Positions 45,553 to 63,658 of a stretch of DNA of 64,000 bases are shown in pieces (position 1 is the first letter of the stretch; every line of letters begins with the position of its first letter). The notes beneath the pieces were generated by a model, which worked only from the letters and a program-made list of their open reading frames with translations, was not told the origin of the DNA and did no database searches. The translations under genes and the position numbers were made by a program. The DNA comes from an uncultured bacterium (GTDB lineage Bacteria; Patescibacteriota; Minisyncoccia; Phycocordibacterales; CAIZLB01), in contig CAIZVZ010000012.1 in assembly GCA_903936565.1 (NCBI GenBank), forward strand, positions 3,778 to 67,777. The letters are read 5' to 3'.

Positions 45553-45650
45553 ATGCTCATATATGTAAAACCTCAATAAAGATGCATATTTATAAAGCTG
45601 CCATTTCAGGCCTTGATTTATAGTCAATTTCATATTAAAGTATAGAACAT

Positions 45651-45721
45651 TGGGAGATCGTCTAACGGTAGGACAGAAGCCTTTGAAGCTTTTAATCTAG
45701 GTTCGATTCCTAGTCTCCCAG
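45651..45721 (+). tRNA. tRNA-Gln (anticodon UUG)
   Basis: manual cloverleaf: 7-bp acceptor stem with the bacterial tRNA-Gln U1:A72 pair, 4-bp D stem, 5-bp anticodon stem, loop cuUUGaa, T-arm ctagg-TTCGATT-cctag, discriminator G; CCA not encoded. Confidence 0.85.
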
Positions 45722-45767
45722 CACGAGTCAGCGCAGTATCGAGGCAAGACCACAGAGCCTGGTTGAG

Positions 45768-47639
45768 TTGCGTTTCAAAATGGTTGGAGTCTTAAAAAGT
45801 GTGAGCCAATATGTTGGACAAACTATTCATAACATTATGAAAAATGAGGATAAAATATTTACAAGAGAAGATATTTATAGATTATCTTTTTGTGTTATTG
45901 TTTTGTTTTTGGTATTTATCTTACCTAAAATAGATTTATACCCAATGTTTGTAAATTTTTTGGTCCTATTGAGACCAAATATGGACCACTATCCATATGC
46001 GAACCCTCCCATATTTTTTTCGATTGGGGAAGCTTTATCATCTATTGCTATATTATTTGCTATATATCAGTTTAAGAAAGAGAAATGGAGTATTGCTTTG
46101 AGGATAAGAAGTTATATTGAACCTACAATATTTATTTGTATCATCCTCGGTATAACACTATCCTTAGTAGCATCAGTAGTTACTTTTTTTTACCCAACAA
46201 ATATTTTCCTTCTGTCAGTTTTTTGGCAAATTATATCCAGTCTTTTCATAGCCTTTTCAATTGTATTTTTATTTTTAAAAGCAACTAATATAAAGCTATT
46301 TAATAAAAATAATTCTCGTAAATTTTATGAAGTAATGGTTGGGGAATTATCTAGGCCAAGTCCTCAAAGGTTAGATGTTACGTTAGAGGCTTTATTAGAT
46401 AATTTTCAAAATATATGTACAGCTGCAAATGGAGATCGTGAATCAGAAGTTTCTAAATCATCAATAGCAATACTCGATGTGGTTTTAGGAGAGTCTTCAT
46501 TAGTTGAACTTTTGGTTACAAAAAGACTCGATGCATTACGTCATTTGATTTATATTATTGAAAAAAACAACATAAATCAGCGCCAAGCACCTGGTTTTCA
46601 AGTCATCGTAAGGAATTTATTTCTTAATGAAGAATCTTTTTTCTATAGACACCTCAATAGAGATGGTTTATCTCTTTCTTCGAATATTTATGAAAGCATA
46701 TTTGAATACCCAAAAATACTTACAAACTTCAATTTATTTGGATATCCAACTTTGGGTTATTTAAAAAGAAACGATAGTCGTGTTGGCCTAAAAGTATTTA
46801 TACAGGCATTGTCAAAAGCAATAGAAACATACTTAAAAACTGGTAACGTGCCAACAAGTTATATTAATAATGGTTTAGAGTATCTTAGTGAGGCTTTCGG
46901 AAATATTTGCACCAAGATCAGTCTTGAGGAAAGTAGAGGGGTTGATACAAAAAATGTCTTAAGTGAAGAGTGGTGGATATTATATGACATTGCAAATTTT
47001 TTAGGTCACGATTATATATTTATTGCTTACGAAGATGATCTAAACCAAGATGTTATAAGAAACGAAAGGGCTACTTCTGAAGCAAGTTTTCATTCAACTT
47101 CTACAATAAACGCAGGAATTGCAGCTGTTTTGTTTAAATCTTTTGAACAACTGTCGCATATCACTAAAACTGTGGACACTTATTATATTGTTCTAGAGTT
47201 ACTTGGTGGTGTAATGCAAGGGGAAAATTACAAAGAAGGTTACAGAGATCCTTTTGAGAAAAGAATGTGGGAGCAAATTGCAAAAAACGTTATAGGTAAA
47301 CATTACCCTAATGTTTTGAGACCTTACTTAACTTTCATTGGTTTTACATTATCTTCGGAAGATAATAATCAAAGAACAGGTTGGGTTGGTGAACAAACGG
47401 AAAGAATGAGAAGATTGCTTTACATCGATTTAAAACCTTTATTTGATAATGAAGAAAGGATGGTTAACGATAAATTAATGAAAGATATTCTCCTTCCTGA
47501 TTCAATGGATTATATAGATGGTAAATTTCTGTATGTAGATGGTTTTGGAAAAGGTGAACGGAGGATAATCAGTGAACCAGCCCCAGGGTCAAAGTCTGCT
47601 TTAGAGGGAGTTGATACTCAAACAAGATCATTGCTTTAG
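45768..47639 (+). CDS. hypothetical polytopic membrane protein (first island gene)
   Basis: several N-terminal TM helices and a large soluble C-terminal region; no motif recognised. Confidence 0.45.
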   Translation: MRFKMVGVLKSVSQYVGQTIHNIMKNEDKIFTREDIYRLSFCVIVLFLVFILPKIDLYPMFVNFLVLLRPNMDHYPYANPPIFFSIGEALSSIAILFAIYQFKKEKWSIALRIRSYIEPTIFICIILGITLSLVASVVTFFYPTNIFLLSVFWQIISSLFIAFSIVFLFLKATNIKLFNKNNSRKFYEVMVGELSRPSPQRLDVTLEALLDNFQNICTAANGDRESEVSKSSIAILDVVLGESSLVELLVTKRLDALRHLIYIIEKNNINQRQAPGFQVIVRNLFLNEESFFYRHLNRDGLSLSSNIYESIFEYPKILTNFNLFGYPTLGYLKRNDSRVGLKVFIQALSKAIETYLKTGNVPTSYINNGLEYLSEAFGNICTKISLEESRGVDTKNVLSEEWWILYDIANFLGHDYIFIAYEDDLNQDVIRNERATSEASFHSTSTINAGIAAVLFKSFEQLSHITKTVDTYYIVLELLGGVMQGENYKEGYRDPFEKRMWEQIAKNVIGKHYPNVLRPYLTFIGFTLSSEDNNQRTGWVGEQTERMRRLLYIDLKPLFDNEERMVNDKLMKDILLPDSMDYIDGKFLYVDGFGKGERRIISEPAPGSKSALEGVDTQTRSLL

Positions 47640-48964
47640 TTATTTAGATAAATTATTTTATTTTTCATTGTGATTCTAGTATCTAAATTTGCCAACATCT
47701 CTCTTTTCTCTTCAACCGTCCCTTCCGTCAAAATGTGCTCTGTATACTTCTTTGAGTCAAACTCAATTTCTAGTTTTGATTGCTTAACCCCATAAAACTG
47801 TTTTTGGAAGGTGACCATGCGTTCTCGTTCTTGTTCAAATTTTCCTTTGATAAACTTTTGATCAACCTCTATTTTATCTATCATTTCAACTAATTGCTTA
47901 ATCAATTCTTCTTCTCGTAGGTATCCACATTTGCAATCTAAGTTTTTTGACCTGTTACATCCATAGTATATGTAATGTGCTGTACCACCATTCTTGAGTT
48001 TTTTGTATTTATCTTCAGCACAAATTCCTGATCCACATAGTCCGCATGTCATTAGTCTAGAAAATGCATAGTCTTTTCTTTCGTGAGTTATTTCAGATCT
48101 CTTGAGTTGCTCACGGACTTTTTCAAAAAGTTCAATATTTATTAAAGGTTCATGTTTTCCTGTATACCAATTACCACTTTTGACAGGGTATTCAAACTTT
48201 CCATAATAAAACGGTGTTTGTAAAAGTTTATATATATTACTCAAGGTTAATGGCTTGTTGCTCGTTGAACTTCTGAAATTCATCTCAAATTTAAGCCAGT
48301 GGTATATCTTTCTACCACTCCACTTTTCATATGCTACTTTCTCAAACATTTTCTTGATAACTGGTGCTCGTTCAGTATCAATCATTACATACCCCTTTCT
48401 ATCGATTCTCTTTTCGTTCAAATATCCTGTTGGGGCAGGGGCAGGCCATAGCCCCATCTCGCACCTTGTCCTTAGTCCTCTTTTGACATTCACGCTTTTG
48501 TTGTCATTTTCAAGTTTGGCTTGCGAACATAAAATCATAAGAAGGAATTTATCACTAGGTGAGTTACTAAATACTTGCCCATAGGTTTTAATTTCAATAA
48601 GCGCCTTTTGGTCTATGAGATCCACTAAACTTCCAAGATCTCCAGCATTTCTTGATAATCTATCTGGTGCCCATGTTAATATTCCTGAATATCTTCCACT
48701 TTTGATGTACATAAGTATTTCCTTAAAAACAGGTCTTTGTCCTGAATCCTTTGCTGAATGCGATTCACGCCTAATGTCCACAATCTCTAACCCTTCTCTT
48801 TCAGCTATCTGTAGCATCTCGTGTACTTGCGATTCTATCGATAGGATCTGTCGCTCCTCAGATTCTGTTGATTTTCTTGCATAAAGGCAGTATTTTACCT
48901 TTACAGGGCTTGATAGCAGGTTCCTCGTGTCAGGGTTCACTTGTAGCGGGTTTTTTGTTTCCAT
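47636..48964 (-). CDS. large serine recombinase (resolvase/invertase-type catalytic domain, recombinase domain and zinc ribbon)
   Basis: YARKSTE...SIESQ catalytic-Ser region, ...DRLSRN..., C-terminal Cys-rich CGLCG...C region. Confidence 0.85.
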   Translation of the reverse strand: METKNPLQVNPDTRNLLSSPVKVKYCLYARKSTESEERQILSIESQVHEMLQIAEREGLEIVDIRRESHSAKDSGQRPVFKEILMYIKSGRYSGILTWAPDRLSRNAGDLGSLVDLIDQKALIEIKTYGQVFSNSPSDKFLLMILCSQAKLENDNKSVNVKRGLRTRCEMGLWPAPAPTGYLNEKRIDRKGYVMIDTERAPVIKKMFEKVAYEKWSGRKIYHWLKFEMNFRSSTSNKPLTLSNIYKLLQTPFYYGKFEYPVKSGNWYTGKHEPLINIELFEKVREQLKRSEITHERKDYAFSRLMTCGLCGSGICAEDKYKKLKNGGTAHYIYYGCNRSKNLDCKCGYLREEELIKQLVEMIDKIEVDQKFIKGKFEQERERMVTFQKQFYGVKQSKLEIEFDSKKYTEHILTEGTVEEKREMLANLDTRITMKNKIIYLNN

Positions 48965-49092
48965 GCCTACATTGATGACGTAGATTACTGAGGAAGTCTA
49001 GCTAAAATGAGTAAAATTTGGGCTTTTATAACCGATATTTATCTGCAAACTATTCTGTACTACCACGATCTTTTAGAGTAGAATGGTTTGTA

Positions 49093-51549
49093 ATGGTTAA
49101 TCCCCTGACTAATATCACGACGATCAAGAATGTTCATCTGTACAAGTTGCTGCAGGTTTTTTTAAGAGACTTTGGAACCGTCCTTGAAAGATATATTACT
49201 GACATCGTTGATACGGAAAATCCAAAATTACTTATAAGTACTAATTATGCAACTTATAAAATTAGTATTATTGATGGAGAAGAAAATAAAGTAGATAACA
49301 AAACTATAGATATAGGACGTGACGCTCTTGATAAAGACTTAAATAAAATAAAATATTTTATTCGTAGACAGTTTATTGCTGATGAAGAGTTGTCAAACCT
49401 TTACTTGAGGCGTGGTTCTGATATAAAACCACATGAAGTACAAGAGGGTGCACTCAATAGTCTTGCTGCGGCTCGAGATGATAATTTAAAAAGAGCTTTA
49501 GTTGTGTTTGCCACTGGACTTGGAAAAACTATTTTATCAGCCCTTGATGTTAAAATGTTTGACGCAAAAAAAGTTTTATTTATTGTTCATATCAATGAGA
49601 TTTTAAGACAGACTAAAGATGCTTTTGAAAAGGTTATGCCTGAAAGGAGAGATGATTTTGGTTTTTTTACAGGCAAACAAAAAGATAGACAAAAAGACAT
49701 TTTATTTACTTCTATACAGACGATTGGTAGGCAAAAACATATCGAAACATTTCCTCCAAGCTACTTCGATTATATTATAGTTGATGAGACACACCATGTA
49801 GCGGCACCTACTTATAGGAAAATATTTGAATATTTTACACCGAAGTTCTTTCTTGGTCTAACAGCAACACCAGATAGAATGGACAAGAAAGATATATTGA
49901 GTTTTTATAACGAGAATGTTGTATTTGAAATGGATCAGAAGGCTGCAATTGAACAGGGTTATTTAACCCCATTTCGATACCTAGGTTTTAAAGATAATAT
50001 AGATTATTCCGACATTTACTTTAATGGATTCAAATATGACACCAAAGATCTTAATAAACATCTTCTTATTAATGAGCGTGATGATGCCATAATAGAGAAA
50101 TTTAAATTGCACGCTTTTGATAGAAAAACAATCGGATTCTGTGCGTCTATTGAACATGCAGAAAGATGTGCAAAAAAATTCAACGAGGCTGGAATAAAAT
50201 CGATAGCAATTCATTCAAAAAGTTTAGAGCTTGATGACTATGAGGATAAAACAAAAGGATCTCTTGTGGACCATTTTAGGAATAATAGATGTCAAATTGC
50301 ATTTACTGTTGATATGTTCAATGAGGGGGTCGATATTCCAGATGTTTCTTGCTTACTTTTTTTGCGTCCGACGGAATCAAAGACAATATTTGTTCAGCAT
50401 ATGGGACGTGGCCTACGTATAGCGCCAAGCAAAGAAAATGTGATTATTCTAGATTTTATCGGTAATTATAGGACTGCAAACCTAATATTAGAGGCTCTAG
50501 ATATTGAGAATAATATTCGAGGTCTTAAAAAGACTTGTGTAGATAATAAAGATATGTTTATTTACGAAATTAATGGATGTGAGGTATGTTTTGAATCAGA
50601 GGTTGTAGATATATTTAAAAATAATGAAGTCCTTTATTCTAAAGAAATCAGAGAAGATGTTGTTGATATTAGGTGGAAGGAGTATTCAGAGTATTTAGAT
50701 AAATGGACTAAGGATAATCTGTATTGGAAATGTGGTCAGCATAATAAATATTTTGAAGTGCATTTCGAGGCACTGAAGATAATCAAGGAAAATAAGGGTA
50801 TTGGGGAGAAGGATTTTATTGAAAAGATTCAGAAAGTTGTTACTGAAAAATACGTTAATAAAAATATGACTGCTGGTTTCAGAGCTTTAATGTTGAGCAA
50901 GATATGTGGTTTTGTTTCGTCTGATTCGCCATTAATGCCGATGCAACCTTATGACGTTATTTACAAAATAACTAAGGATTTTTCAGATTTAAGAAAATAT
51001 GAGGATATATTAACTCAACAACTTGAAAAAATATTCTATTGGAACCCTATCTATGGTTCATATAATAAATATGTTGATTTGACTAAAAGGGTTTCATTTA
51101 AGGATTTTAAAATATACCCGTTTTTCTTAATATACGATGTAATGATTAGATTACTCGATGATTACGGTTCTGAACCGTGCATAAGTAAGTTTGAATTTGA
51201 TACTTTTTTGTCTATTACTAAAGAACACATAGAATCAAGAGATGTGGCGGAAAAGATATTGCGTTACCGTAATGATGACGAAAAAAAGCAGGTTGAAAAG
51301 CTTTTGAATTCAAAAAACCACATCGATTCAAGGTTTTTCGGCATTTTACATTACTGTAAATATATTAAAACTGATAAAAGAGGTGTTTCCATTAAACCTG
51401 AGTGTATTGAAGAAATACGGTTGAGAGTTGGTAAATTTAGGGGATTATATGAATCTGGAAAACTGATTATGTACAGCACAGAGTCTCCAAAAACTTATAA
51501 AGATATGCTATACTCAGAGGGTGACTTACTCAGTTTTCATGTTAACTAA
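49093..51549 (+). CDS. SF2 helicase (ResIII/DEAD-like ATPase core) with a C-terminal domain homologous to the N-terminus of the 54243-55601 product
   Basis: Walker A ATGLGKT, DEAH-like box VDETHH, motif III GLTATP; start taken at MVNPL (49093; the ORF track starts at 49018); stop codon abuts the start of the next gene. Confidence 0.75.
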   Translation: MVNPLTNITTIKNVHLYKLLQVFLRDFGTVLERYITDIVDTENPKLLISTNYATYKISIIDGEENKVDNKTIDIGRDALDKDLNKIKYFIRRQFIADEELSNLYLRRGSDIKPHEVQEGALNSLAAARDDNLKRALVVFATGLGKTILSALDVKMFDAKKVLFIVHINEILRQTKDAFEKVMPERRDDFGFFTGKQKDRQKDILFTSIQTIGRQKHIETFPPSYFDYIIVDETHHVAAPTYRKIFEYFTPKFFLGLTATPDRMDKKDILSFYNENVVFEMDQKAAIEQGYLTPFRYLGFKDNIDYSDIYFNGFKYDTKDLNKHLLINERDDAIIEKFKLHAFDRKTIGFCASIEHAERCAKKFNEAGIKSIAIHSKSLELDDYEDKTKGSLVDHFRNNRCQIAFTVDMFNEGVDIPDVSCLLFLRPTESKTIFVQHMGRGLRIAPSKENVIILDFIGNYRTANLILEALDIENNIRGLKKTCVDNKDMFIYEINGCEVCFESEVVDIFKNNEVLYSKEIREDVVDIRWKEYSEYLDKWTKDNLYWKCGQHNKYFEVHFEALKIIKENKGIGEKDFIEKIQKVVTEKYVNKNMTAGFRALMLSKICGFVSSDSPLMPMQPYDVIYKITKDFSDLRKYEDILTQQLEKIFYWNPIYGSYNKYVDLTKRVSFKDFKIYPFFLIYDVMIRLLDDYGSEPCISKFEFDTFLSITKEHIESRDVAEKILRYRNDDEKKQVEKLLNSKNHIDSRFFGILHYCKYIKTDKRGVSIKPECIEEIRLRVGKFRGLYESGKLIMYSTESPKTYKDMLYSEGDLLSFHVN

Positions 51550-53145
51550 ATGAAGAAATTCAATAAAAATATTACAGCCGAATCACATCCGTCGCATTAT
51601 ATGATGCATAAATACTGGGGTAGAAAGCCTCACAATGTTGTTCGTGACTATATTTTAAATTTTACTAAGCCTGGAGACGTTGTCCTAGACCCTTTTATGG
51701 GTAGTGGAGTTGTCGTCATAGAATCTCTAAAGATTAATCGTAAGGTAATTGGAATAGACTTAAATCCAATGGCTTGTTTTATTGCTCAGAACACAATCAA
51801 TGATGTTGATTTGGATGATTTCTCGGTTGAATTTGAAAAAATATACAAAAAAAATTATGATCTTTTTTCTAAATTGTATCTTACTAAGTGTCCAACATGT
51901 AAGACAGAAGTTCCTTTCGAAAATTCTATTTGGGAACTAGAAGATTTTGTTAAGATAAAAGGTACGTGTTTACTTTGTGGTAAGTTTACAAAAGATACTG
52001 ATTCCCATGACCACAAAACATTCAATAAATCTAAGGATATTTTTTTCGAATTGAATAGTCAAAATAAAATATTTTATCCAAAGGATGAAATATTAAAGTT
52101 CGTCAAGAGAAACGGAAAAAGTCATGTTAATCAATTTTTTACCGATCGCTCTCTTGCTGTGCTTGGATCTATTATAAAAGATATAGAGAAGATAAAAAAT
52201 ATTAATACAAAGAATTTGGTTTTGATGTGTTTTACTTCAATGTTACCAAACGTGTCTAAAATGATTCCTGGAGATAAAGATACTGTAAATGGCAGATCGG
52301 GTTGGGTAATAAGTAAGTTATGGGCTCCCAAGATACACACAGAACGCAATCCATTGAACAGTTTTAGAGAAAGATTTAAAAAAATTAAAAAAGGAAAATT
52401 AGAACTAATTGATGCTTTTAACGCAAAGGATGCAAAAATATTAAACATTGACGCTACAAACCTAAAGGTAATAAAGAGTTCATCGGTAAATTATATTTTT
52501 ACTGATCCACCGTATGGCGATAGCATTGCTTACTTTGGGTTGAGTATGTTCTGGAATTCGTGGCTTAAAAAGGTTGTGGATTATGAAAATGAAATAATAT
52601 TTGATCCTTATAGAAATAAAAAATACGAAGATTATTCGAACCGAATGAAAAAAGTGTATGAAGAGTTGTTTAGAGTTCTTAAAAATAAGAGCTATTTGTC
52701 ATTTACTTTTCACAATAGAAATTTAAATATCTGGAAAGCTGTCATGGATGCTGTAACTGATGCTGGATTTCATCTAGTTAATGTTGTATATCAAGAACAG
52801 GCAGTAGCGTCGGGTACGCAAGGTATAAACAGAAATAATACACTTCGTGGTGATTTTGTATATAATTTTTTAAAGGACTCAAGTGTTATTTCTAAAAAAA
52901 ATAGCAACTTAAGTAAAATAGATAATGAGATAGAAATAATAAAGAAAGTAGAAAAATGGATTTTAAAAGCTGAAGGATCAATAACTTCTGACGCGTTATA
53001 TGAAAAGTTAATCCCGTTCATTGTTGAAGGTCAATTGTATGCTGATAATAACGGATTGGTTATGAACATAGAAGATGTGTTAAAGAGACATTTTGAATAT
53101 AGTTTTATCAAAACAAAAAAAGAATATGGCTGGCAAAAAAAATAA
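51550..53145 (+). CDS. DNA N6-adenine/N4-cytosine methyltransferase
   Basis: AdoMet motif I VLDPFMGSGVV at the N-terminus and catalytic motif IV DPPYG at ~residue 310; atg directly follows the helicase stop. Confidence 0.8.
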   Translation: MKKFNKNITAESHPSHYMMHKYWGRKPHNVVRDYILNFTKPGDVVLDPFMGSGVVVIESLKINRKVIGIDLNPMACFIAQNTINDVDLDDFSVEFEKIYKKNYDLFSKLYLTKCPTCKTEVPFENSIWELEDFVKIKGTCLLCGKFTKDTDSHDHKTFNKSKDIFFELNSQNKIFYPKDEILKFVKRNGKSHVNQFFTDRSLAVLGSIIKDIEKIKNINTKNLVLMCFTSMLPNVSKMIPGDKDTVNGRSGWVISKLWAPKIHTERNPLNSFRERFKKIKKGKLELIDAFNAKDAKILNIDATNLKVIKSSSVNYIFTDPPYGDSIAYFGLSMFWNSWLKKVVDYENEIIFDPYRNKKYEDYSNRMKKVYEELFRVLKNKSYLSFTFHNRNLNIWKAVMDAVTDAGFHLVNVVYQEQAVASGTQGINRNNTLRGDFVYNFLKDSSVISKKNSNLSKIDNEIEIIKKVEKWILKAEGSITSDALYEKLIPFIVEGQLYADNNGLVMNIEDVLKRHFEYSFIKTKKEYGWQKK

Positions 53146-54250: not shown

Positions 54251-55601
54251 AAAATATATTGAATTATTAAAAAACAAGGGTACTAAAAACTTTTGGAAAA
54301 AGGCTAAGCAAAAGGAGTATACAAAAGATGCTGTAAATAAAATATATCATGATTTGACTGCTCATTTTGAAGATCTAACCACACGTAACAGTATAACTTT
54401 GCGTTATTTAGGTTTAGTAATTAATCTAGGATCTGATAATCTAAAAGTTTCAAATGCTGGAGAAACATTTATAAGTTCCCCTTATAAGCAAAAAATATTA
54501 GATGAACAGATAATGAAAATTTATCTTGATTGCCCAAGACTCAATGATAATCTTTCCATTAAAATTGCCCCAATGGAGATTCTTCTGCATGTCTTGTATA
54601 AAATAAATTTTGTATCTTTCGAGGAGTATCAACTTTTCGTCTGTTGGATAAATAGCAAAGAGGATGTTGATCTGGCGCTTGATTTAATAAGCGAATATAG
54701 ACAATCTAATAAACAGTATTTATATATGTATGCCTTGAAAGAAAAGAGTGAAGAACTTGGTATAAGTGATTTTTCAGATAATGTTAAAAGATTTTTTGAC
54801 ATGTTATTAATATCTTCTTATATAACAAAAGATTATAATAATAATTTGTCATTAGCACTTTCTAAAAAAGACACCGAAATAATATTAGAGAGCTTTTCAT
54901 TAAGAGATTTTAGTGACGAACATTATTTTGATTATCTAACTACTAATAATGGTTGGCAGATTTACTCTATAAATCCGAATTATATTCGTGTCATTGAAAG
55001 TCTTGAGAAAAAAACAACAGAAGAGCAAGAAGATATAATAAATAATATAACGAACGACTTGAAGTTTCCAAATATTGACGACGTCAAACCTAAGATTATA
55101 GAGGTTGAAATTGATGATAGTCGTAGTGAGGAAGAGTCAACCCCTACAAGAAAAAAACTATCGCCACATAAAATTGACTTTGAAATTAGGGACAATAATA
55201 ATAGGGCGGCAGGGGATTTTGCGGAAAAAATCGTAATTAAACATGAGATAGAACAACTTTCTGAGGCAAATCAAACCACGGTTGATAATGTTAAGCAGGT
55301 TTCTCTAGAGGATGACACTTTGGGGTATGATATACTCTCATTTGATTTTGATGGGGTTACTGAGAAACACATAGAAGTTAAAGCTGTGAGAAGTGAACCC
55401 TCAATATCTTTCAGATTTTATATTTCAGAAAATGAAGTTTTAATAGCAAAGAATGATCCTAATTATTATCTTTATATTGTGTTTGGGTATCTTTCTGATA
55501 CTCCTTATATATATAAGATGCCGAATCCATTCACTAAAGATATTCCAGGAGTCACAATTGATCCAATTAAATATATTGTAACTGTTAAACTTAAAAAATA
55601 A
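54243..55601 (+). CDS. putative restriction endonuclease: N-terminal domain shared with the helicase, C-terminal PD-(D/E)xK-like (DUF3883-like) motif
   Basis: GYDILSFDFD...EKHIEVKA fits a D-(x)n-E-x-K nuclease signature; 8-nt overlap with the C5-MTase stop; its N-terminal domain aligns to helicase residues ~700-830. Confidence 0.45.
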   Translation: MIKKYIELLKNKGTKNFWKKAKQKEYTKDAVNKIYHDLTAHFEDLTTRNSITLRYLGLVINLGSDNLKVSNAGETFISSPYKQKILDEQIMKIYLDCPRLNDNLSIKIAPMEILLHVLYKINFVSFEEYQLFVCWINSKEDVDLALDLISEYRQSNKQYLYMYALKEKSEELGISDFSDNVKRFFDMLLISSYITKDYNNNLSLALSKKDTEIILESFSLRDFSDEHYFDYLTTNNGWQIYSINPNYIRVIESLEKKTTEEQEDIINNITNDLKFPNIDDVKPKIIEVEIDDSRSEEESTPTRKKLSPHKIDFEIRDNNNRAAGDFAEKIVIKHEIEQLSEANQTTVDNVKQVSLEDDTLGYDILSFDFDGVTEKHIEVKAVRSEPSISFRFYISENEVLIAKNDPNYYLYIVFGYLSDTPYIYKMPNPFTKDIPGVTIDPIKYIVTVKLKK

Positions 55602-55617
55602 AATTAATATCATATTT

Positions 55618-56016
55618 TTAAGTACTACTATCAAGTTCCGTCTTTTTTGATTCACCACTCTTGTCCTGCGGATTGTGTATCTCATATATAATCTTCTCCA
55701 CACCATGGTGAATCGGCTCAAAGAAGCCTCTAGGGCGAGGCTTTACATATTCTTTATGATTATTTTCTAACCATAATTTAGAGGCTCGAAAGTCGCCTTT
55801 CTTAATCAGAGAAATAATATGTCCTTCAGCAAGGTCGTTCACACTAGAGCGACCTTGTTTTAGTGCTTTTTCAAGTTTTTTAGCAAATCTTTTATCTTTT
55901 TCTTTCCACCTATATATAGTTGCTTTGCATATGCCAACTCGTCTACAAACAACAGATATGAGTGGAATCTCAACAAGTTCTTGAAGGAACTTTTCTTTAT
56001 CATCATGATTTTTCAT
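55618..56016 (-). CDS. HTH DNA-binding protein resembling a phage terminase small subunit
   Basis: ISVVCRRVGICKATIYRW helix-turn-helix; co-oriented with, and overlapping, the ParB-methylase gene as in phage packaging modules. Confidence 0.4.
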   Translation of the reverse strand: MKNHDDKEKFLQELVEIPLISVVCRRVGICKATIYRWKEKDKRFAKKLEKALKQGRSSVNDLAEGHIISLIKKGDFRASKLWLENNHKEYVKPRPRGFFEPIHHGVEKIIYEIHNPQDKSGESKKTELDSST

Positions 56017-57343
56017 GTATCTTTATTGCTTTTTTGCCAGTAAGATTTTCCCAGCGTTTTTTTATGACTTCTGCATATACTGGAGATTTCTCCATCAAGA
56101 AACACCTGCGGTTCATTCTGGTTGATGCCATAAGTGTTGACCCACTTCCTCCAAATGGTTCTACAATTAGATCATCTCTTTTGGTAAGGACTTTGATGTA
56201 GGGGATTAGTATCTCTAATGGTTTTGTGCCAAATATAACACCCTGTCCAGACGATGCTTCATCAGATGCTTTGTACTCAATGAAGTCTGTTGGACATATT
56301 TTCTTTCCTTTCTCGTACCCTTCCCATTGTGGCTTGCCTGAAATTGCATAAAGAGCTGTCTGATACTCATTCTCAAGGATTTCATCTTCTGGCTGAATAT
56401 TCATCTCTACAGAGTCTTCTGTTGTTCCAACCATAGCTATGTCATGTTTGCTAAAAAACTTATACTTAGCCGAGAAACCTTGAGTTCTGTTTGGTAAATG
56501 CCACACAAGCATGTTTTTTACCTTCCAGTATTTTTCCATCTCATTCCAAATGATTCTAATATTCTTCCAATTTTCATAAACGATTATATGAAAATTGTCT
56601 TTGGAAATATCTTTTATGTTCTTCATCCACAGTTCTGTGAAGTTGTCTGGTAGGGAATCAGTTTCAAGATATCTTCGATTCTTCTTTGCTCCAAAACCTG
56701 TAGTGACCCCATCCTTTTGTTTTGTTTTGCCAGACAAATAATCTAGTATATAAGGAGGGTCAGTAAAACACATATCGGCCTTGTGACCGTCCATGAGTGT
56801 TTGCATATCAGATTCTATAGTACTATCTCCACACATTAGTCTTGATCCATCTAAGTCATATACATCGCCCTTCTTAATGTCTATGTTTTGAATATCTAGT
56901 TTATGTAGTTCCTTTTCCAGATCAAACATCTCAGTTGTTTCTTCGGTAAGGAAGATATCGTCTAATTCTTCACTTGAAAAGCCAATGTCAGAAAGAAAAG
57001 TCTCGTCAAACTCCTTAAGTAAATCTAGATCAAATTCCCCAGTATTTTTATTTAGACGAATATTCAACTCCTTTTCTTTTTCAAGATCTGCGATATTCAC
57101 ATAAACTACAGGTATTAAATCTATACCTAGTTCTTTTGCCACTTCGTATCTGAAACACCCGCCAATTATCACATTTTCACGTCCGGGTGCATTGTTGCAT
57201 ATAATAGGATCGATAAAACCGAATCTCTTTAAAGATTCTTTTAACTGGTCGGATTGGTCCTTGGAATGTTTTCTTGGATTGTAATCTGGTACTACTAACA
57301 TGCTCGTTGAGAGATACTCAACTTTAATATTCTCCTTGTTCAT
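56003..57343 (-). CDS. ParB-like nuclease N-terminal domain fused to an N6/N4 DNA methyltransferase (phage-type orphan methylase)
   Basis: ParB-N fold residues ~1-90; DPPY motif CFTDPPYILDY; C-terminal AdoMet motif VEPFGGSGST (beta-class motif order). Confidence 0.8.
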   Translation of the reverse strand: MNKENIKVEYLSTSMLVVPDYNPRKHSKDQSDQLKESLKRFGFIDPIICNNAPGRENVIIGGCFRYEVAKELGIDLIPVVYVNIADLEKEKELNIRLNKNTGEFDLDLLKEFDETFLSDIGFSSEELDDIFLTEETTEMFDLEKELHKLDIQNIDIKKGDVYDLDGSRLMCGDSTIESDMQTLMDGHKADMCFTDPPYILDYLSGKTKQKDGVTTGFGAKKNRRYLETDSLPDNFTELWMKNIKDISKDNFHIIVYENWKNIRIIWNEMEKYWKVKNMLVWHLPNRTQGFSAKYKFFSKHDIAMVGTTEDSVEMNIQPEDEILENEYQTALYAISGKPQWEGYEKGKKICPTDFIEYKASDEASSGQGVIFGTKPLEILIPYIKVLTKRDDLIVEPFGGSGSTLMASTRMNRRCFLMEKSPVYAEVIKKRWENLTGKKAIKIHEKS

Positions 57344-57666: not shown

Positions 57667-59163
57667 ATGAGCCATATAATCTCAAAAACACTTTTTCTAG
57701 AGTACCGCTATTGCCCCAAGAATATTTGGCTTAAGCTAAATAAACGAGAATTACTTGATAAGTTCACACTTTCCGACTTTGAAAAGCATCTTGCAGAGCA
57801 GGGGAATGAAGTTGAATCATGTGCTAGAGGTTTGTTTTCCAAGGGGGTTGAAGTTAAGTCTAACGGGGAGGGTGCTTGCATAGAAACTGTGCAGCTTATA
57901 ACATCAGGAGTTAAAACACTTTTTCAATCAACGTTTATTGTCGATGGATTTATTGCTCGTAATGACATACTCCACTTCGATGAACAGAATGATTGTTGGG
58001 ACTTATTTGAAGTCAAAGGTACAAATAGTTTAAAGGAAAGTGGAGAAAGAGATCATATTGAAGATGTAGGGTTTCAAGTTTCAGTTCTTAAGCGTGCAAA
58101 TGTGAGGATAGGTAAATATTTCTTGATTCATTTAAATAAAGAATATGTACGCGACGGCGATTTAGATCTAGGTCTTCTATTTAAAATAGAAGATGTGACA
58201 GAAAAAGTAAATGAGAGATTGGTAGATATTGAAAAACAAATGGATTCAGCTCGTGAATATTTAAATAGAGAAAGTGAACCAGAAGGAGGTTGTGACTGTG
58301 TATACAAAGGGAGAGGTAAGCATTGCTCAACGTTCAAGCATTCTAACTCGCATGTGCCTGACTATTCAGTTCACGATCTTTCAAGTATAAGAGAAAAGAA
58401 AGTGACTGAATTAATAGAAAATGGAATCTTTGAGCTAAATGACATTCCAGATGAGTTTGAATTATCTGATAATCAAAAACTTCAAATAAGTGCTCATGTA
58501 AGACAATCGCCAATTATTGATTTGGGTAGTGTAAAGGATGAGTTAGATAAACTTGAATTTCCTTTATACTTTTTTGACTATGAAGCTTTTGCTCCAGCAA
58601 TTCCAATGTTCAATGGTTATAGCCCTTACAATCCAATTCCATTTCAATTTTCTTTGCACATATTAGATGCGCCAAATACTGAGATGCGACATGTTGAATT
58701 TCTGCATATGGAAAGAACTGATCCATCACATCTAGTCGCCGAGATTTTAGACAAACATATTTCAAATAAGGGGACAGTAATTGCTTGGAATAAGTCTTAT
58801 GAGACAAGAGTGAATGAACAGATAGCTGCACGCTTACCACAATACAATAGTTTATTTAGTAGAATAAATAGTTCAATGTATGATTTACGTGATATATTTC
58901 AAAAACAGTATTATGTGCACCACGGCTTTAAGGGTAAGACTTCTATAAAAAAAGTTCTTCCAATTCTTGCTCCAGATCAGCGTTATGATGTTCTAGATAT
59001 TCAAGAAGGTGGACAAGCTGCAGACGCATGGTGGAGGATGGTGTCTCCCGTCCCTGGCGATGAGGAGAAAGCTAAGATTGCAAAAGATCTAAAGATTTAT
59101 TGTGGTTTAGATACATATGCGATGTACGCGATTTGGAAGCATTTAGTTGATTTAATGAATTAA
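57667..59163 (+). CDS. two-nuclease protein: Cas4/RecB-like Fe-S PD-(D/E)xK domain plus C-terminal DEDDy 3'-5' exonuclease-like domain (DUF2779-like architecture)
   Basis: N-terminal YRYCPKNIWL, D...DLFEVKG motifs, C-x-C-x8-C cluster (GGCDCVYKGRGKHC); C-terminal FFDYEAF (Exo I), YDLRDIF (Exo II), YCGLD (Y-x3-D). Confidence 0.55.
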   Translation: MSHIISKTLFLEYRYCPKNIWLKLNKRELLDKFTLSDFEKHLAEQGNEVESCARGLFSKGVEVKSNGEGACIETVQLITSGVKTLFQSTFIVDGFIARNDILHFDEQNDCWDLFEVKGTNSLKESGERDHIEDVGFQVSVLKRANVRIGKYFLIHLNKEYVRDGDLDLGLLFKIEDVTEKVNERLVDIEKQMDSAREYLNRESEPEGGCDCVYKGRGKHCSTFKHSNSHVPDYSVHDLSSIREKKVTELIENGIFELNDIPDEFELSDNQKLQISAHVRQSPIIDLGSVKDELDKLEFPLYFFDYEAFAPAIPMFNGYSPYNPIPFQFSLHILDAPNTEMRHVEFLHMERTDPSHLVAEILDKHISNKGTVIAWNKSYETRVNEQIAARLPQYNSLFSRINSSMYDLRDIFQKQYYVHHGFKGKTSIKKVLPILAPDQRYDVLDIQEGGQAADAWWRMVSPVPGDEEKAKIAKDLKIYCGLDTYAMYAIWKHLVDLMN

Positions 59164-59164
59164 A

Positions 59165-59695
59165 ATGAAAAATAAACTTACAAAACATTTAAATTTCTCC
59201 AGTATATCACTATGGAATGAAAAATTTGATGATGTTCTGGAATTGGATAAACATCTAGATAAGTTAGATAAAAGAGTTGTTTTCATTGGTCTTAACGCAA
59301 CAAAAACACTTGATCCTTTTCTAAATTTTCATTCTGTGAGAAGAGGGGGAAGAGATAGATGGATCAAAGAGGCTTTCGACAATGGCAATTTAGGAATTGT
59401 CTATATGACTGATGTAATTAAGAATGATACAACGGTGGATTCTGGTAAGGTAAATTTGTCAAAAGAGAATATTAAAGAAAATCTTAAATATTTAAAGCAA
59501 GAGTTGTTAGATTTGAGTAGTGATAAAAAGCTGGTGATTGCAGTGGGAGGTGAAGTTAAGAAAATAATTTTAAATAATAAGGACTATCTAGGTGTAGAGG
59601 ATGTCTTTTGTTGTAGGTATTATGCTAGTCGCTGCACAAAGGATGAATTTCTAAGGAGTTTCTCTGATGTTGTAAAAGAAATAATTAAAATATGA
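59165..59695 (+). CDS. hypothetical protein (176 aa)
   Basis: abuts the stop of the upstream nuclease gene; no motif recognised. Confidence 0.4.
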   Translation: MKNKLTKHLNFSSISLWNEKFDDVLELDKHLDKLDKRVVFIGLNATKTLDPFLNFHSVRRGGRDRWIKEAFDNGNLGIVYMTDVIKNDTTVDSGKVNLSKENIKENLKYLKQELLDLSSDKKLVIAVGGEVKKIILNNKDYLGVEDVFCCRYYASRCTKDEFLRSFSDVVKEIIKI

Positions 59696-60258
59696 AAATA
59701 GACATAAATAAAATTGAAAAAGACTCATTAAAAATTAAAAACATTAGTGATAATTCATATATTCAGTCTTATAAAGAATTCATTAAATATTTTGATGGTT
59801 TAGATGAGATAAAAAAAGAAAATTTAATAATAGGTTCACATCTTGTGTATGGCTGGATGCCAAAGGTCTTGCGTCTTAATTTGAGACAGGAGAAGGAGGT
59901 ACTTCAAATTTTAAATGAAGTCAAAAGAGGTGTGTTAATATCAAAAACAAATTTGGAAACCTTGAGGTCAGCAATAGGTAATTCAATGGTTGGCGTATCT
60001 AAGCTTCTGCATTTTATATCACCAAAGAAGTATGCTATTTGGGATAGCCGGGTATATAGCTATATCCATAATGGTGTAAAGCCTTATGACTATCAGATAA
60101 AAAGACCTGAATTGTATTTGGAATATTTACAAGAAATGGAGAAGGTCTCAAAAGAAACTGCTGTAAAGGAAATACAATCTACCGTAGTGAAAGCTTGCGG
60201 ATATAAAGCAACTCCATTTAGAGCTATTGAATTAGTTATGTTTGAGACAGGTAGGTAA
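59692..60258 (+). CDS. hypothetical protein (188 aa)
   Basis: 4-nt overlap (atga) with the upstream ORF. Confidence 0.4.
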   Translation: MKIDINKIEKDSLKIKNISDNSYIQSYKEFIKYFDGLDEIKKENLIIGSHLVYGWMPKVLRLNLRQEKEVLQILNEVKRGVLISKTNLETLRSAIGNSMVGVSKLLHFISPKKYAIWDSRVYSYIHNGVKPYDYQIKRPELYLEYLQEMEKVSKETAVKEIQSTVVKACGYKATPFRAIELVMFETGR

Positions 60259-60301
60259 AAGGTCTTTAATTATTCTCAGACAGGAGTATTATATTAGGTA
60301 T

Positions 60302-60964
60302 ATGAGAGTCCCAGATGAAAAAATTCAAAAAATGAAAGATATTCTTGAAAAAAGAGGTGGAAAGGAAGTAACTTGGGCAGAAGCTTCTGATGCTTCAACT
60401 AGACTATCAAGTCTCATGGAGTTACTTTTAAAACATGCACAGGAAGACTGGAAAAGGGAACAGAAGCTCAAAGAATATCCAAAAGGTTTTTCTTTAGGCG
60501 GTGTCGGTTATTCTTGCTTTATATGTGGACAAGGAACTTCTTTAAATGGAAATTGGTACGATAAATATGGAATAAAATGTATGGTCTGTCAGGATTCAAT
60601 TAACAGAAAGGAAATACCCGCAAGTTTATCTAAGGATAAAGAAAGTTGGTATAGTAAATATGATCTAGAAGGTAGTTTTAATTTGAAAGCACCAACCCTT
60701 CGAGGTTGGATAAAGAGAGGTATTATCAAAGCTCGTACACTTACATATAATGGAAAGGGTGTGCACTATCAAGTATTTCTAATTAAGGATAACAAAGGAT
60801 TTTTACCACCGAAACATATGGTAAAAAATCAATTTGTTAGTGAGGAGATTGACGGTAAAATTTGGCATCATTCAGAACCTTGGTATAAGTTTGTTGACCC
60901 TTTTGAGCACTTAAAGGACTATGGAATCATGAAGTATATGAGTTACACGGAAGTGGAAAAATAA
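60302..60964 (+). CDS. hypothetical zinc-ribbon protein
   Basis: CFICGQG...(15 aa)...CMVCQ four-Cys ribbon; start taken at MRVPDE. Confidence 0.4.
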   Translation: MRVPDEKIQKMKDILEKRGGKEVTWAEASDASTRLSSLMELLLKHAQEDWKREQKLKEYPKGFSLGGVGYSCFICGQGTSLNGNWYDKYGIKCMVCQDSINRKEIPASLSKDKESWYSKYDLEGSFNLKAPTLRGWIKRGIIKARTLTYNGKGVHYQVFLIKDNKGFLPPKHMVKNQFVSEEIDGKIWHHSEPWYKFVDPFEHLKDYGIMKYMSYTEVEK

Positions 60965-60978
60965 TTTTCTATTTTCCC

Positions 60979-61022
60979 TCTATCCCTATGATGTTTGGGT
61001 ACCCAAACATCATAGGGATAGA
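60979..61022. repeat. perfect 44-bp palindrome (two 22-nt arms with no spacer, centred on gggtaccc)
   Basis: tctatccctatgatgtttgggt|acccaaacatcatagggataga read directly; no flanking T-run. Confidence 0.9.
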
Positions 61023-61408
61023 AGAGAAGTACGTCAATAACACTACAACACAAAGTTGTGTTGTAAACATTAATTTTGAAATTGATCTTAATGATGTATT
61101 GGAAAGCATTAGAGTGTTGCTCTATTATATCAGAAAAACGGCTAGAAATAAAGGTTTAGTTCCAAAATCAAAGAATATTTTTTTAGTCATAACATATTGC
61201 CCAGTGTGTCTCATTTGTCTTATTTTGGAAATAAAACACCCGACCGAGACGGGTCAATATGATACAATAATAATCGTTGAAGAACCCTTACGGTGTCTCA
61301 CGGTGAGAGGTTCTAGACCGAAGTACACAGCTGATTTTTCCTCTATGTGCGAAGCGCATAAATATTAGATTAAATCATCCCGAGCCTCGCGAGGGACAGT
61401 TTTTGCAA

Positions 61409-61468: not shown

Positions 61469-61477
61469 ATTTGTTAT

Positions 61478-63603: not shown

Positions 63604-63658
63604 TCTGTCAATAAATTAGGTATATTAATAAATATATAATCTTGATATACTATCTAAA

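What the first reader, a model, noticed from the sequence alone, without database searches (positions are those of the whole stretch)
45651..61400. Accessory island inserted next to tRNA-Gln(UUG) with a large serine recombinase
Just past the tRNA 3' end the gene content switches from core housekeeping genes to a membrane ORF, a large serine recombinase, methyltransferases, nucleases and phage-like genes. It returns to transport and core genes around 61.4 kb. A tRNA anchor together with a recombinase is the classic mark of an integrative element. A serine rather than tyrosine recombinase at a tRNA site is the less common arrangement.
Basis: inference. Interest (0 to 1): 0.6.

Follow-up and report, generated by a model that had tools for sequence, protein, structure and literature searches.

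The report
Serine-recombinase defence island at tRNA-Gln
A 15.6-kb mobile DNA element carrying restriction-modification genes sits exactly at the 3' end of a tRNA-Gln gene in an uncultured Patescibacteria genome. It was inserted by a large serine recombinase from a widespread family that consistently sits next to tRNA gene ends.

Summary
tRNA-Gln(UUG) lies at 45651-45722. An integrated element occupies 45723-61331 (15,609 bp).

- **Left junction:** similarity to relatives without the element stops exactly at the tRNA 3' end.
- **Right junction:** It was placed using two other lineages (L105, L158), in which the sequences at the window's right end (P arm) and left end (P' arm) are contiguous.
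- **Recombinase:** it is intact, with 442 aa, three domains and a catalytic-serine motif.
- **Mobility:** a host whose flanks are only 82% identical in DNA carries the same left end at 99.9% identity. Another contig with that host's identical DnaX protein has no recombinase gene downstream.
- **Family:** of 80 related recombinase loci, 42 have a tRNA (Ser, Gln, Asp, Trp, Asn) on the opposite strand just past the recombinase 3' end, and none has one upstream. A P' motif, GTATCGAGG..GACC, recurs at a fixed distance from the tRNA end.
- **Content:** the backbone is the recombinase, a helix-turn-helix protein and a ParB-methyltransferase. The cargo is restriction-modification or defence genes and differs between close relatives. 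No phage structural or conjugation genes were found.

It is a new member of a known kind.

The parts
45651..45722 (+). tRNA-Gln(UUG). Its 3' part (about 45698-45722, GGTTCGATTCCTAGTCTCCCAGC) is the B arm of attL. The crossover lies within AGC at 45720-45722, so the tRNA stays whole.
   Evidence: ARAGORN and Rfam. Similarity to genomes without the element ends at 45722.
45723..45767 (+). P' arm of attL, the left end of the element: ACGAGTCAGCGCAGTATCGAGGCAAGACCACAGAGCC...
   Evidence: It is conserved directly after tRNA-Gln in L104, L106, L107, L109, L113, L114 and L103, and in the P|P' junction of L105. The GTATCGAGG..GACC motif recurs after tRNA-Ser and tRNA-Asp in other clades.
45768..47639 (+). 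Cargo slot 1: a 623-aa protein (619 aa from the ATG used by gene callers). It has N-terminal hydrophobic helices (read as membrane-spanning; no topology tool was run) and an all-alpha domain. Function unknown.
   Evidence: No Pfam, PADLOC, PHROG, NCBIfam or PDB hit. The AF2 model has pLDDT 85.8 and no PDB fold match. At this position L093 has a KAP NTPase and L009 has a P-loop (GPGTGKS), UvrD-like protein as read by eye. Homologues elsewhere are not linked to a recombinase.
47636..48964 (-). Large serine recombinase (integrase), 442 aa, intact. Its 3' end points toward the tRNA.
   Evidence: PF00239, PF07508 and PF13408. YARKS32T and DRLSR motifs. phrog_95 integrase at 1.5e-61. Best PDB match is the SPbeta YokA recombinase (called SprA from my own knowledge) at 1.9e-8. 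CcrB at 7e-31, below the family cut-off.
49018..51549 (+). Cargo slot 2, gene 1: an SF2 helicase of restriction-enzyme type.
   Evidence: ResIII and Helicase_C domains. PADLOC mREase_IV at 5e-81. PDB 7clg putative helicase at 8e-78 over residues 130-511; I take 7clg to be SauUSI from my own knowledge.
51550..53145 (+). Cargo: N6/N4 DNA methyltransferase, 531 aa.
   Evidence: PF01555. PADLOC MTase_II and PglX-like hits.
53093..54250 (+). Cargo: C5 cytosine DNA methyltransferase.
   Evidence: PF00145 at 1e-74. PADLOC MTase_II at 1e-114.
54243..55601 (+). Cargo: NOV_C (DUF3883-type) nuclease-like protein, 452 aa.
   Evidence: PF13020. PADLOC PDC-S36 and PD-T4-1.
55618..56016 (-). Backbone: helix-turn-helix protein, 132 aa. 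Its role is unknown. Candidates are a regulator, a recombination directionality factor, or a small-terminase-like protein.
   Evidence: PF13022 at 31.6 bits. Weak small-terminase PHROG hits at about 5e-7. Homologues occur in 33 of 80 recombinase loci.
56003..57343 (-). Backbone: ParB-N domain fused to an N6/N4 DNA methyltransferase, 446 aa.
   Evidence: PF02195 and PF01555. phrog_498 at 4e-79. Homologues occur in 30 of 80 recombinase loci. The part of this backbone block held for L104 (window 55670-56106: HTH gene plus the first ~100 nt of this gene) is 96.6% identical in DNA.
57667..59163 (+). DUF2779 protein, 498 aa. Function unknown.
   Evidence: PF11074 at 1e-36. NCBIfam UU173 family, below cut-off. 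A homologue occurs in the L105 element.
59165..60964 (+). Three ORFs without family hits (59165-59695, 59692-60258, 60242-60964).
   Evidence: No hits in four libraries. The 240-aa ORF has homologues in 2 of 80 loci.
60979..61022 (.). Near-perfect palindrome with a 20-bp stem and a 4-nt loop, in the non-coding right end.
   Evidence: z -8.7. It is not conserved in L105 or L158.
61109..61331 (+). Conserved non-coding right end that finishes in the P arm of attR: ...GGTGTCTCACGGTGAGAGGTTCTAGACCGAAGTACACAGC. The core AGC is at 61329-61331.
   Evidence: It aligns to the sequence immediately left of the P|P' junction in L105 and L158 and ends exactly at CAGC.
61332..61375 (+). B' arm, where host sequence resumes: TGATTTTTCCTCTATGTGCGAAGC...
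   Evidence: Weak similarity (24 of 46) to the post-tRNA sequence CGGTATTTCCGCCTTTGTTTCAAGCC of relatives without the element.

Best explanation
Positions 45723-61331 are a 15.6-kb integrative element of an uncultured Patescibacteria (Paceibacteria-like) bacterium.

**How it inserts.** Its large serine recombinase (47636-48964) is inferred to have recombined an element site with a chromosomal site.
- The element site attP is the P arm (...GGTTCTAGACCGAAGTACACAGC) joined to the P' arm (ACGAGTCAGCGCAGTATCGAGG...).
- The chromosomal site attB is the last roughly 25 nt of tRNA-Gln(UUG) plus the sequence that follows it.
- The crossover lies within the AGC shared by all four sites, at the acceptor end and discriminator of the tRNA. 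The tRNA therefore stays intact and no long direct repeats form.
- The P arm resembles the tRNA T-arm and acceptor end, as expected when one protein dimer binds all the half-sites.

**What it carries.**
- The conserved backbone has four parts: the P' arm, the recombinase, a helix-turn-helix protein with a ParB-methyltransferase, and the right-end non-coding region.
- Two variable slots hold the cargo. Here slot 1 holds a membrane protein of unknown function.
- Slot 2 holds a helicase-type restriction enzyme, an N6/N4 methyltransferase, a C5 methyltransferase and a NOV_C nuclease-like protein.
- The cargo most likely protects the host against foreign DNA. The ParB-methyltransferase most likely protects the element's own DNA.

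**Shown versus inferred.**
- Shown: the junctions, the intact recombinase, absence from close relatives, near-identical copies in a diverged host, the family-wide tRNA linkage, and cargo swapping.
- Inferred: catalysis by this recombinase, the exact crossover dinucleotide, the defence function, and the transfer route, which is unknown.
For: **Left junction**
- Relatives L091, L092 and L093 match the window through 45722 or 45723 and then diverge.
- Six genomes without the element share one post-tRNA sequence.

**Right junction**
- In L105, the sequence homologous to window 61109-61331 is directly followed by the homologue of 45723-45767. L105 is assembled identically in three samples (L184, L186).
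- L158 shows the same P-arm joined to a P' arm of another class.
- P-arm identity to the window is 35 of 46 for L158 and 32 of 48 for L105. P' identity to L105 is 42 of 48.

**Mobility**
- L103 has DnaX 91% identical in protein and flanks 82% identical in DNA. It carries the tRNA plus the left 770 nt of the element with one mismatch.
- A 48-kb contig encoding the identical DnaX protein has NUDIX, a 427-aa gene and DsbB downstream, and no recombinase.

**Recombinase**
- Intact, as shown.

**Family**
- 42 of 80 loci have a tRNA on the opposite strand 98-9235 nt past the recombinase 3' end, and none has one upstream.
- 32 of the 38 loci without a tRNA have less than 4 kb of downstream DNA.
- Three P' sequence classes that I assigned by eye follow the recombinase clades of the tree.

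**Backbone and cargo**
- Helix-turn-helix and ParB-methyltransferase homologues occur in 33 and 30 of 80 loci.
- L104 has a recombinase 96% identical in protein and a backbone segment (window 55670-56106) 96.6% identical in DNA. In place of this window's cargo it carries at least a type I restriction R subunit (HsdR).
- L093, in the same genus, carries a KAP NTPase and a type I restriction-modification system behind a different recombinase at the same tRNA.
- A Pfam census of 103 interior ORFs is dominated by DNA methyltransferases and restriction subunits. No capsid, portal or large-terminase family is among the 25 most frequent listed.
Against: - No read-level evidence of excision, a circle or an empty site exists for this population. 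Every contig read that carries this window's exact proteins and extends past the tRNA carries the element; two end at or near it.
- The P|P' junction of L105 lies inside an 82-kb contig. Its recombinase there has an in-frame stop. It is therefore more likely a fossil tandem array than a free attP.
- No circular contig was found.
- B' similarity to the sites without the element is weak, 24 of 46.
- A second B'-like copy at about 63.52 kb leaves the history of the right flank unclear.
- The G+C shift does not mark the right boundary.
- Only the left 770 nt of the second-host copy are available.
- The defence role of the cargo rests on domain matches only.
- No recombination directionality factor, replication gene or transfer gene was identified.
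Confidence: 0.85

Rival explanations
1. The element is a phage satellite, or is otherwise transferred by phage. It would integrate through the same serine recombinase but spread by hijacking a helper phage, with the helix-turn-helix protein acting like a small terminase. This rival concerns only the transfer route and does not conflict with the integration mechanism.
For: - The size of 15.6 kb is in the satellite range as I recall it; not checked here.
- The helix-turn-helix protein matches PF13022 and three small-terminase PHROGs at E 5e-7 to 7e-6.
- The ParB-methyltransferase matches phrog_498 at 4e-79.
- IMG/VR lists fragments of the related L105 element as viral contigs.
- Variable defence cargo between conserved core genes is what P4-like satellites and PICIs show. 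This is from my own knowledge.
Against: - The terminase-like hits are weak and cover little more than a helix-turn-helix motif.
- No primase, replicase, capsid-remodelling or packaging genes were detected here.
- No capsid, portal or large-terminase family is among the 25 most frequent in 103 interior ORFs of relatives.
- No helper phage is known.
Confidence: 0.12
2. The element is a decayed prophage. On this view the region is what remains of a temperate Patescibacteria phage after loss of its structural genes.
For: - Large serine recombinases are typical phage integrases (phrog_95).
- The ParB-methyltransferase and helix-turn-helix module is phage-like.
Against: - The small backbone recurs across many diverged lineages with intact recombinases.
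- The copy in a second host is 99.9% identical, which points to a functional unit and not random decay.
- No structural, lysis or replication families were found.
Confidence: 0.04
3. The element is mobilised by conjugation, as an integrative mobilizable element, or moves by natural transformation. It would excise as a circle and transfer through another element's machinery or through DNA uptake.
For: - It is small and lacks self-transfer genes, like serine-recombinase mobilizable elements (PMC5704250).
- Type IV pilus and secretion-type genes (T2SSF, N_methyl) occur near the same region in a related host genome (L093).
Against: - No relaxase, oriT or coupling-protein family was detected.
- As far as I know, conjugation systems are not established in Patescibacteria.
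- Single-stranded uptake would not obviously regenerate a circular attP substrate.
Confidence: 0.07
4. The region is ancestral, with a domesticated recombinase. On this view the gene block is inherited vertically and the recombinase is not an integrase of this block.
For: All contigs read that carry this window's exact proteins and extend past the tRNA show the same arrangement.
Against: - It is absent from relatives with 91-97% identical DnaX.
- It is near-identical in a host whose flanks are 82% identical.
- Both ends join as P|P' in other lineages.
Confidence: 0.02

Closest known systems
Serine-integrase elements and phages (SPbeta SprA, Bxb1, phiC31, TP901-1, A118)
   Same: - Same three-domain architecture: resolvase catalytic domain, recombinase domain and zinc ribbon.
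- Best PDB matches are the SPbeta YokA recombinase (SprA) and the TP901-1 integrase.
- Junctions lack long direct repeats and share only AGC.
   Different: - The target is the extreme 3' end of a tRNA gene, not a site inside a protein-coding gene.
- The element has no phage genes.
- Sequence relatedness is distant (E about 1e-8).
- No directionality factor has been identified.
Staphylococcal cassette chromosome (SCC/SCCmec) with Ccr recombinases
   Same: - It uses a large serine recombinase. The best NCBIfam hit is CcrB at E 7e-31, well below the family cut-off.
- From my own knowledge, SCC inserts at the 3' end of a conserved RNA-related housekeeping gene without inactivating it, carries accessory cargo including restriction-modification genes, has no self-transfer genes and forms tandem composite arrays.
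- Tandem-like P|P' junctions are seen here in L105 and L158.
   Different: - It has a single recombinase, not a CcrA/CcrB pair.
- The target is a tRNA, not rlmH.
- The host is a different phylum.
- It is not a member: the score is 107 bits against a cut-off of 900.
Tycheposons and related tRNA-adjacent elements of Prochlorococcus (Hackl et al., bioRxiv 10.1101/2020.12.28.424599)
   Same: - They are cargo-carrying integrative elements next to tRNA genes that build variable islands.
- 27 of 937 carry a large serine recombinase.
   Different: - Most use tyrosine recombinases, and many carry replication genes.
- The host is a cyanobacterium.
- No sequence relationship was tested here.
tRNA-targeting tyrosine-integrase islands and satellites with defence hotspots (P4-like, PICI)
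   Same: - They also sit at a tRNA 3' end.
- They are small.
- Their variable defence cargo is bracketed by conserved core genes. This is from my own knowledge.
   Different: - The recombinase family is unrelated.
- There is no duplicated tRNA segment forming direct repeats.
- No satellite hallmark genes were found.

Membership tests
Large serine recombinase (serine integrase) | N-terminal resolvase catalytic domain with a serine nucleophile | tested here: met
   PF00239 at 5e-19 over residues 27-171. YARKS32T and DRLSR motifs are present.
Large serine recombinase (serine integrase) | Recombinase domain plus a zinc-ribbon C-terminal region | tested here: met
   PF07508 at 2e-12 and PF13408 at 5e-7, both above their gathering scores. 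The alignment to the SPbeta YokA recombinase (SprA) spans residues 16-365.
Large serine recombinase (serine integrase) | Short att sites, a 2-bp crossover, and no long direct repeats at the junctions | tested here: inconclusive
   attL, attR, the L105 P|P' junction and the L091 empty site share only AGC at the junction. No long direct repeat flanks the element. The crossover dinucleotide itself was not resolved.
Large serine recombinase (serine integrase) | Catalyses attP x attB recombination | not testable with these tools
   This needs an in vitro or in vivo recombination assay.
tRNA-associated integrative genomic island | Inserted at a tRNA gene and absent from close relatives | tested here: met
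tRNA-associated integrative genomic island | Defined attL and attR that reconstitute attP and attB | tested here: met
   P|P' is contiguous in L105 and L158. B' resembles the empty-site sequence only weakly, 24 of 46.
tRNA-associated integrative genomic island | Evidence of horizontal movement | tested here: met
   The left end is 99.9% identical in a host whose flanks are 82% identical. A contig with the same DnaX protein has no recombinase gene downstream of dnaX.
Prophage | Capsid, portal, large terminase, tail and lysis genes | tested here: not met
   None were found by Pfam or PHROGs in the element. None of these families is among the 25 most frequent listed (of 71 matched) for 103 interior ORFs of relatives.
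Integrative conjugative or mobilizable element | Relaxase or oriT, with or without a type IV secretion system | tested here: not met
   No such family was found in the Pfam or NCBIfam scans of the element's ORFs. oriT cannot be tested.
Phage satellite (PICI or P4-like) | Integrase, replication module and packaging-hijack genes | tested here: inconclusive
   The integrase is present. There are only weak small-terminase-like hits for the 132-aa helix-turn-helix protein. No primase or replicase was found.
Restriction-modification or defence island cargo | DNA methyltransferases together with nuclease or helicase restriction components | tested here: met
   PF01555, PF00145, ResIII and NOV_C. PADLOC mREase_IV at 5e-81, MTase_II, PDC-S36 and PD-T4-1. 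PDB 7clg putative helicase (SauUSI, from my own knowledge) at 8e-78. Activity was not tested.
SCC (Ccr) elements | CcrA/CcrB or CcrC recombinase scoring above the family cut-off | tested here: not met
   CcrB scores 107 bits against a cut-off of 900.

The most novel reading that the evidence does not exclude
The recombinase may belong to an undescribed, Patescibacteria-wide clade of large serine recombinases that specialise in the extreme 3' end of tRNA genes.
- The element-borne P arm imitates the tRNA T-arm and acceptor end.
- A conserved P' motif, GTATCGAGG..GACC, sits at a fixed distance from the tRNA end.
- The clade has switched repeatedly between tRNA-Gln, Ser, Asp, Trp and Asn.

Such a clade would be a main vehicle for moving restriction-modification cargo in these reduced genomes, possibly with phage help. 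It would also offer a natural series of recombinase and att pairs that land on highly conserved sites without damaging them.
Probability: 0.45. Interest if true: 0.6.

Novelty: new member of a known kind. Interest (0 to 1): 0.48.

Why it matters
Mobile elements of Patescibacteria (the Candidate Phyla Radiation) are, to my knowledge, poorly characterised, and four text searches found no description of this recombinase family.

The window gives a cleanly delimited example with base-level junctions. It shows how these very small genomes gain and exchange restriction-modification genes:
- an integrase cassette docks at a tRNA end without harming the tRNA;
- its cargo differs between close relatives while the backbone stays the same.

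The wider family supplies many natural recombinase and att-site pairs aimed at different tRNAs. That could interest people who study how serine integrases choose their sites, or who look for new integrases as tools. It does not overturn any current view. The mechanism is the standard serine-integrase one.

Tried and rejected
- **Repeats:** a repeat search across 45-64 kb found no flanking direct or inverted repeats that define the element, as expected for a serine integrase.
- **A right junction at about 63.52 kb:** the sequence ...AATCAGC|AGATTTCTGCC resembles the empty-site sequence of L091, and a 38-nt repeat links 61424-61461 with 63566-63603. I rejected it as the element's end because no P-arm precedes it. 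The L105 and L158 alignments end at 61331.
- **GTDB representative genomes:** the closest has only about 50% DnaX identity. This was useful for dnaX-tRNA-Gln synteny and for L009 and L023, but not for the junctions.
- **Rfam:** only the tRNA was found.
- **Promoter and terminator scan:** promoter-like sites were not above chance, 63 against 69 expected.
- **Circular contigs:** none were found among the recombinase loci.
- **P-arm search allowing substitutions only:** it found only the window's own copies. A gapped search was needed.
- **The 623-aa protein:** no family hit, no PDB sequence hit and no fold match despite a confident model. Its homologues elsewhere are not next to recombinases.
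- **The DUF2779 protein:** no PDB sequence match.
- **The palindrome at 60979-61022 as a conserved element feature:** it is absent in L105 and L158.
- **Composition as a marker of the right boundary:** rejected, because G+C stays low past attR.

Full report
**What is in the sequence**

ARAGORN and Rfam both find one tRNA in the window, tRNA-Gln(UUG) at 45651-45722 on the + strand. Upstream lie housekeeping genes: phosphoglycerate mutase, enolase, Dus, and DnaX at 43803-44942.

- a 623-aa protein with N-terminal hydrophobic helices (I read these as membrane-spanning; no topology tool was run);
- a 442-aa large serine recombinase on the minus strand;
- a ResIII helicase;
- an N6/N4 and a C5 DNA methyltransferase;
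- a NOV_C protein;
- a helix-turn-helix protein and a ParB-methyltransferase on the minus strand;
- a DUF2779 protein;
- three ORFs without hits;
- a periplasmic binding protein from 61478.

G+C falls from 0.39 to 0.33 at the tRNA but stays near 0.34 beyond 61.3 kb.

**Host and synteny**

Exact copies of the window's proteins occur only in metagenome contigs, and those that extend past the tRNA all have the same arrangement. The best matches in the species-representative genome collection are Patescibacteria (Paceibacteria-type) assemblies at about 50% DnaX identity. In these, dnaX followed by tRNA-Gln is a conserved pair. Most have no recombinase after the tRNA. Two do: L009 at 60% recombinase identity and L023 at 38%.

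**Close relatives without the element, and the left junction**

A protein search with DnaX found closer relatives.
- Contigs with 94-97% identical DnaX (L091, L092, L099-L102) have dnaX, tRNA-Gln and then unrelated genes.
- A 48-kb contig with the 91%-identical DnaX protein P0005 also has unrelated genes after dnaX; no DNA is held for it, so its tRNA was not checked.
- None of these has a recombinase.
- In the relatives compared by blastn (L091, L092, L093), DNA similarity to the window runs from 45608 to 45722 or 45723 and stops there; L099-L102 carry the same tRNA end and the same post-tRNA sequence as L091.

The left junction is therefore 45722|45723, at the discriminator end of the tRNA.

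An 87% relative (L093-L096) has tRNA-Gln, a KAP NTPase, a recombinase only 54% identical, and a type I restriction-modification system. This is the same layout with a different element at the same site.

**The recombinase family and tRNAs**

A metagenome scan returned 80 loci with recombinases 58-96% identical.
- In 42 loci, a tRNA lies on the opposite strand 98-9235 nt beyond the recombinase 3' end: Ser 23, Gln 14, Asp 3, Trp 1, Asn 1.
- No tRNA lies upstream of a recombinase.
- Of the 38 loci without a tRNA, 32 have under 4 kb of downstream sequence.
- Directly after tRNA-Gln in the window's clade comes a conserved stretch of about 40 nt, ACGAGTCAGCGCAGTATCGAGG-N-AGACC-N-GAGCC.
- Its core, GTATCGAGG..GACC, recurs at the same distance from the ends of tRNA-Ser and tRNA-Asp in other clades.
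- Two further motif classes occur elsewhere.
- In a neighbour-joining tree without support values, clades follow the motif classes I assigned by eye, while the tRNA target changes within clades.

I read this stretch as the P' half-site.

**The right junction**

In L105 (93% recombinase identity), the P' stretch is preceded not by a tRNA but by a sequence that aligns to window 61109-61331 and ends exactly at CAGC. The same contiguous junction is assembled identically in three samples.

L158, from a different recombinase clade, has the same P-arm (35 of 46 to the window) joined to a P' of another class.

The window's two ends are therefore the two halves of one element site. The right junction is 61331|61332 and the element is 15,609 bp.

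The four sites share only AGC left of the junction:

| Site | Sequence at the junction |
|---|---|
| attL | CCCAGC\|ACGAG |
| attR | CACAGC\|TGATT |
| L105 junction | GTCAGC\|ACGAG |
| L091 empty site | CCCAGC\|CGGTA |

- The P arm resembles the tRNA 3' end (17 of 26).
- The P arms of different elements resemble each other more than they resemble the tRNA. That argues they belong to the element and are not decayed host tRNA fragments.
- The sequence after 61331 resembles the empty-site sequence only weakly (24 of 46).

**Mobility**

L103 is a 4-kb contig whose DnaX is 91% identical in protein and whose flanks are about 82% identical in DNA. It carries the tRNA and the first 770 nt of the element with a single mismatch. 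The 48-kb contig that encodes the identical DnaX protein has no recombinase gene in the 10 kb downstream of dnaX. This is the pattern of recent horizontal transfer into the same site, with presence or absence varying within a host lineage.

**Backbone and cargo**

- Helix-turn-helix and ParB-methyltransferase homologues accompany the recombinase in 33 and 30 of 80 loci. The other genes are rarely shared.
- L104 shares three segments with the window: P' at 94% DNA identity, the recombinase at 90% DNA and 96% protein identity, and the stretch of the helix-turn-helix/ParB-methyltransferase block held for L104 (window 55670-56106) at 96.6% DNA identity.
- L104 nevertheless has a different gene between tRNA and recombinase. 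In place of 49-55.6 kb it carries other genes, at least a type I restriction R subunit (HsdR).
- A census of 103 interior ORFs is dominated by DNA methyltransferases and restriction subunits. No capsid, portal or large-terminase family is among the 25 most frequent listed.
- In this window the helicase core matches PDB 7clg (a putative helicase that I take to be SauUSI) at E 8e-78, and PADLOC's type IV restriction model at 5e-81. The NOV_C protein matches the candidate defence families PDC-S36 and PD-T4-1.
- The 623-aa protein belongs to a family of at least 130 Paceibacteria proteins. It has no known domain and a confident all-alpha model without a fold match. Its homologues elsewhere are not next to recombinases.

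**Mechanism**

The recombinase is intact. It is distantly related to the SPbeta YokA recombinase (SprA), the TP901-1 integrase and the Ccr recombinases.

The most likely mechanism is ordinary serine-integrase recombination between attP (P-AGC-P') and attB (the tRNA end plus B'). The crossover would be at the acceptor end and discriminator, so the tRNA is never disrupted.

The transfer route is unknown. No conjugation, replication or virion genes were detected. A phage-satellite lifestyle is possible, but it rests only on weak small-terminase-like hits.

**Comparison with what is known**

Reviews state that serine-recombinase elements usually insert inside genes and tyrosine-recombinase elements at tRNA 3' ends (PMC5704250). 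Even so, 27 of 937 tRNA-adjacent Prochlorococcus elements carry a large serine recombinase. Four text searches found no description of this Patescibacteria family.

I therefore file it as a new member of a known kind: a serine-integrase genomic island. The family-level tRNA-end specialisation is the part that may be new.

**Limits**

- There are no reads, so there is no direct evidence of excision.
- The L105 junction is probably a fossil tandem array, since its recombinase has an in-frame stop.
- The crossover dinucleotide, the directionality factor and the cargo activity are all untested.
- The region between attR and the first gene shared with the 94% relative, a deacetylase about 4.3 kb further on and outside the window, is itself variable. 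It contains a second B'-like repeat.

Noticed in passing
window 61380-61470 and 63500-63610: An intergenic sequence of about 100 nt occurs twice, upstream of the genes at 61478 and about 63660. Its core is 61424-61461 against 63566-63603, 82% identical over 38 nt. Both copies resemble the post-tRNA sequence of relatives without the element. It could be a promoter or regulatory element, or a scar of earlier insertions at the tRNA site.
   Followed up: partly
window 61332-64000 and beyond (L089 8477-10073): The genes right of attR are a binding protein, a 244-aa ORF, a methyltransferase and DsbB. They are not next to tRNA-Gln in the 94% relative. The first shared gene there is a polysaccharide deacetylase about 4.3 kb beyond attR, so the variable region is larger than the element.
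   Followed up: partly
window 60979-61022: A near-perfect palindrome (20-bp stem, 4-nt loop; DNA fold z -8.7) lies in the 367-nt non-coding right end of the element. It is absent from the related elements L105 and L158. It may be a terminator, a protein-binding site or an origin.
   Followed up: partly
window 60988-61368: A 126-aa ORF called by gene finders runs across the attR junction (61331|61332). It lies over a region conserved as DNA with indels, so it is probably not a real gene.
   Followed up: no
L105 (also L184, L186), junction at L105 12884/12885: The P and P' arms are contiguous inside an 82-kb contig, with ParB-methyltransferase genes on both sides in opposite orientation. The recombinase there has an in-frame stop. 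This looks like a tandem or composite array. IMG/VR lists fragments of it as viral.
   Followed up: partly
L093-L096, after tRNA-Gln (L093 12410-21083): A different recombinase lineage (54% identical) occupies the same tRNA-Gln site in a host of the same genus. It carries a KAP NTPase, a type I restriction-modification system and an AAA_15/AAA_21 ATPase. A PemK toxin gene sits between dnaX and the tRNA.
   Followed up: partly
L091 and L092, 82 nt after tRNA-Gln: Two contigs encoding the identical DnaX protein share 82 nt after the tRNA and then diverge completely. One continues with RhuM, MFS and RhuM genes, the other with a metallo-beta-lactamase-fold gene, CdaA and GlnA. This is a second variable junction at the same locus.
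   Followed up: no
L126, L169/L170, L174, L175, just after tRNA-Ser: Partial tRNA-like 3' fragments (GGTTCGAATCC...) lie tens of nucleotides beyond the full tRNA, near the P' motif. They suggest remnants of earlier elements or stacked att sites.
   Followed up: no
window about 55506-55525 (ends of L006 and L007, start of L089): Contigs from two assemblies break near the 3' end of the NOV_C gene, close to the boundary between variable cargo and conserved backbone. In L008 the helicase gene is split into 661 and 159 aa. Both hint at coexisting cargo variants in the population.
   Followed up: no
window 45768-47639: The 623-aa protein belongs to a Paceibacteria family of at least 130 sequences with no Pfam domain. 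Its AF2 model is confident (pLDDT 85.8), with N-terminal hydrophobic helices (probably membrane-spanning; no topology tool was run) and an all-alpha domain, and it has no PDB fold match.
   Followed up: yes
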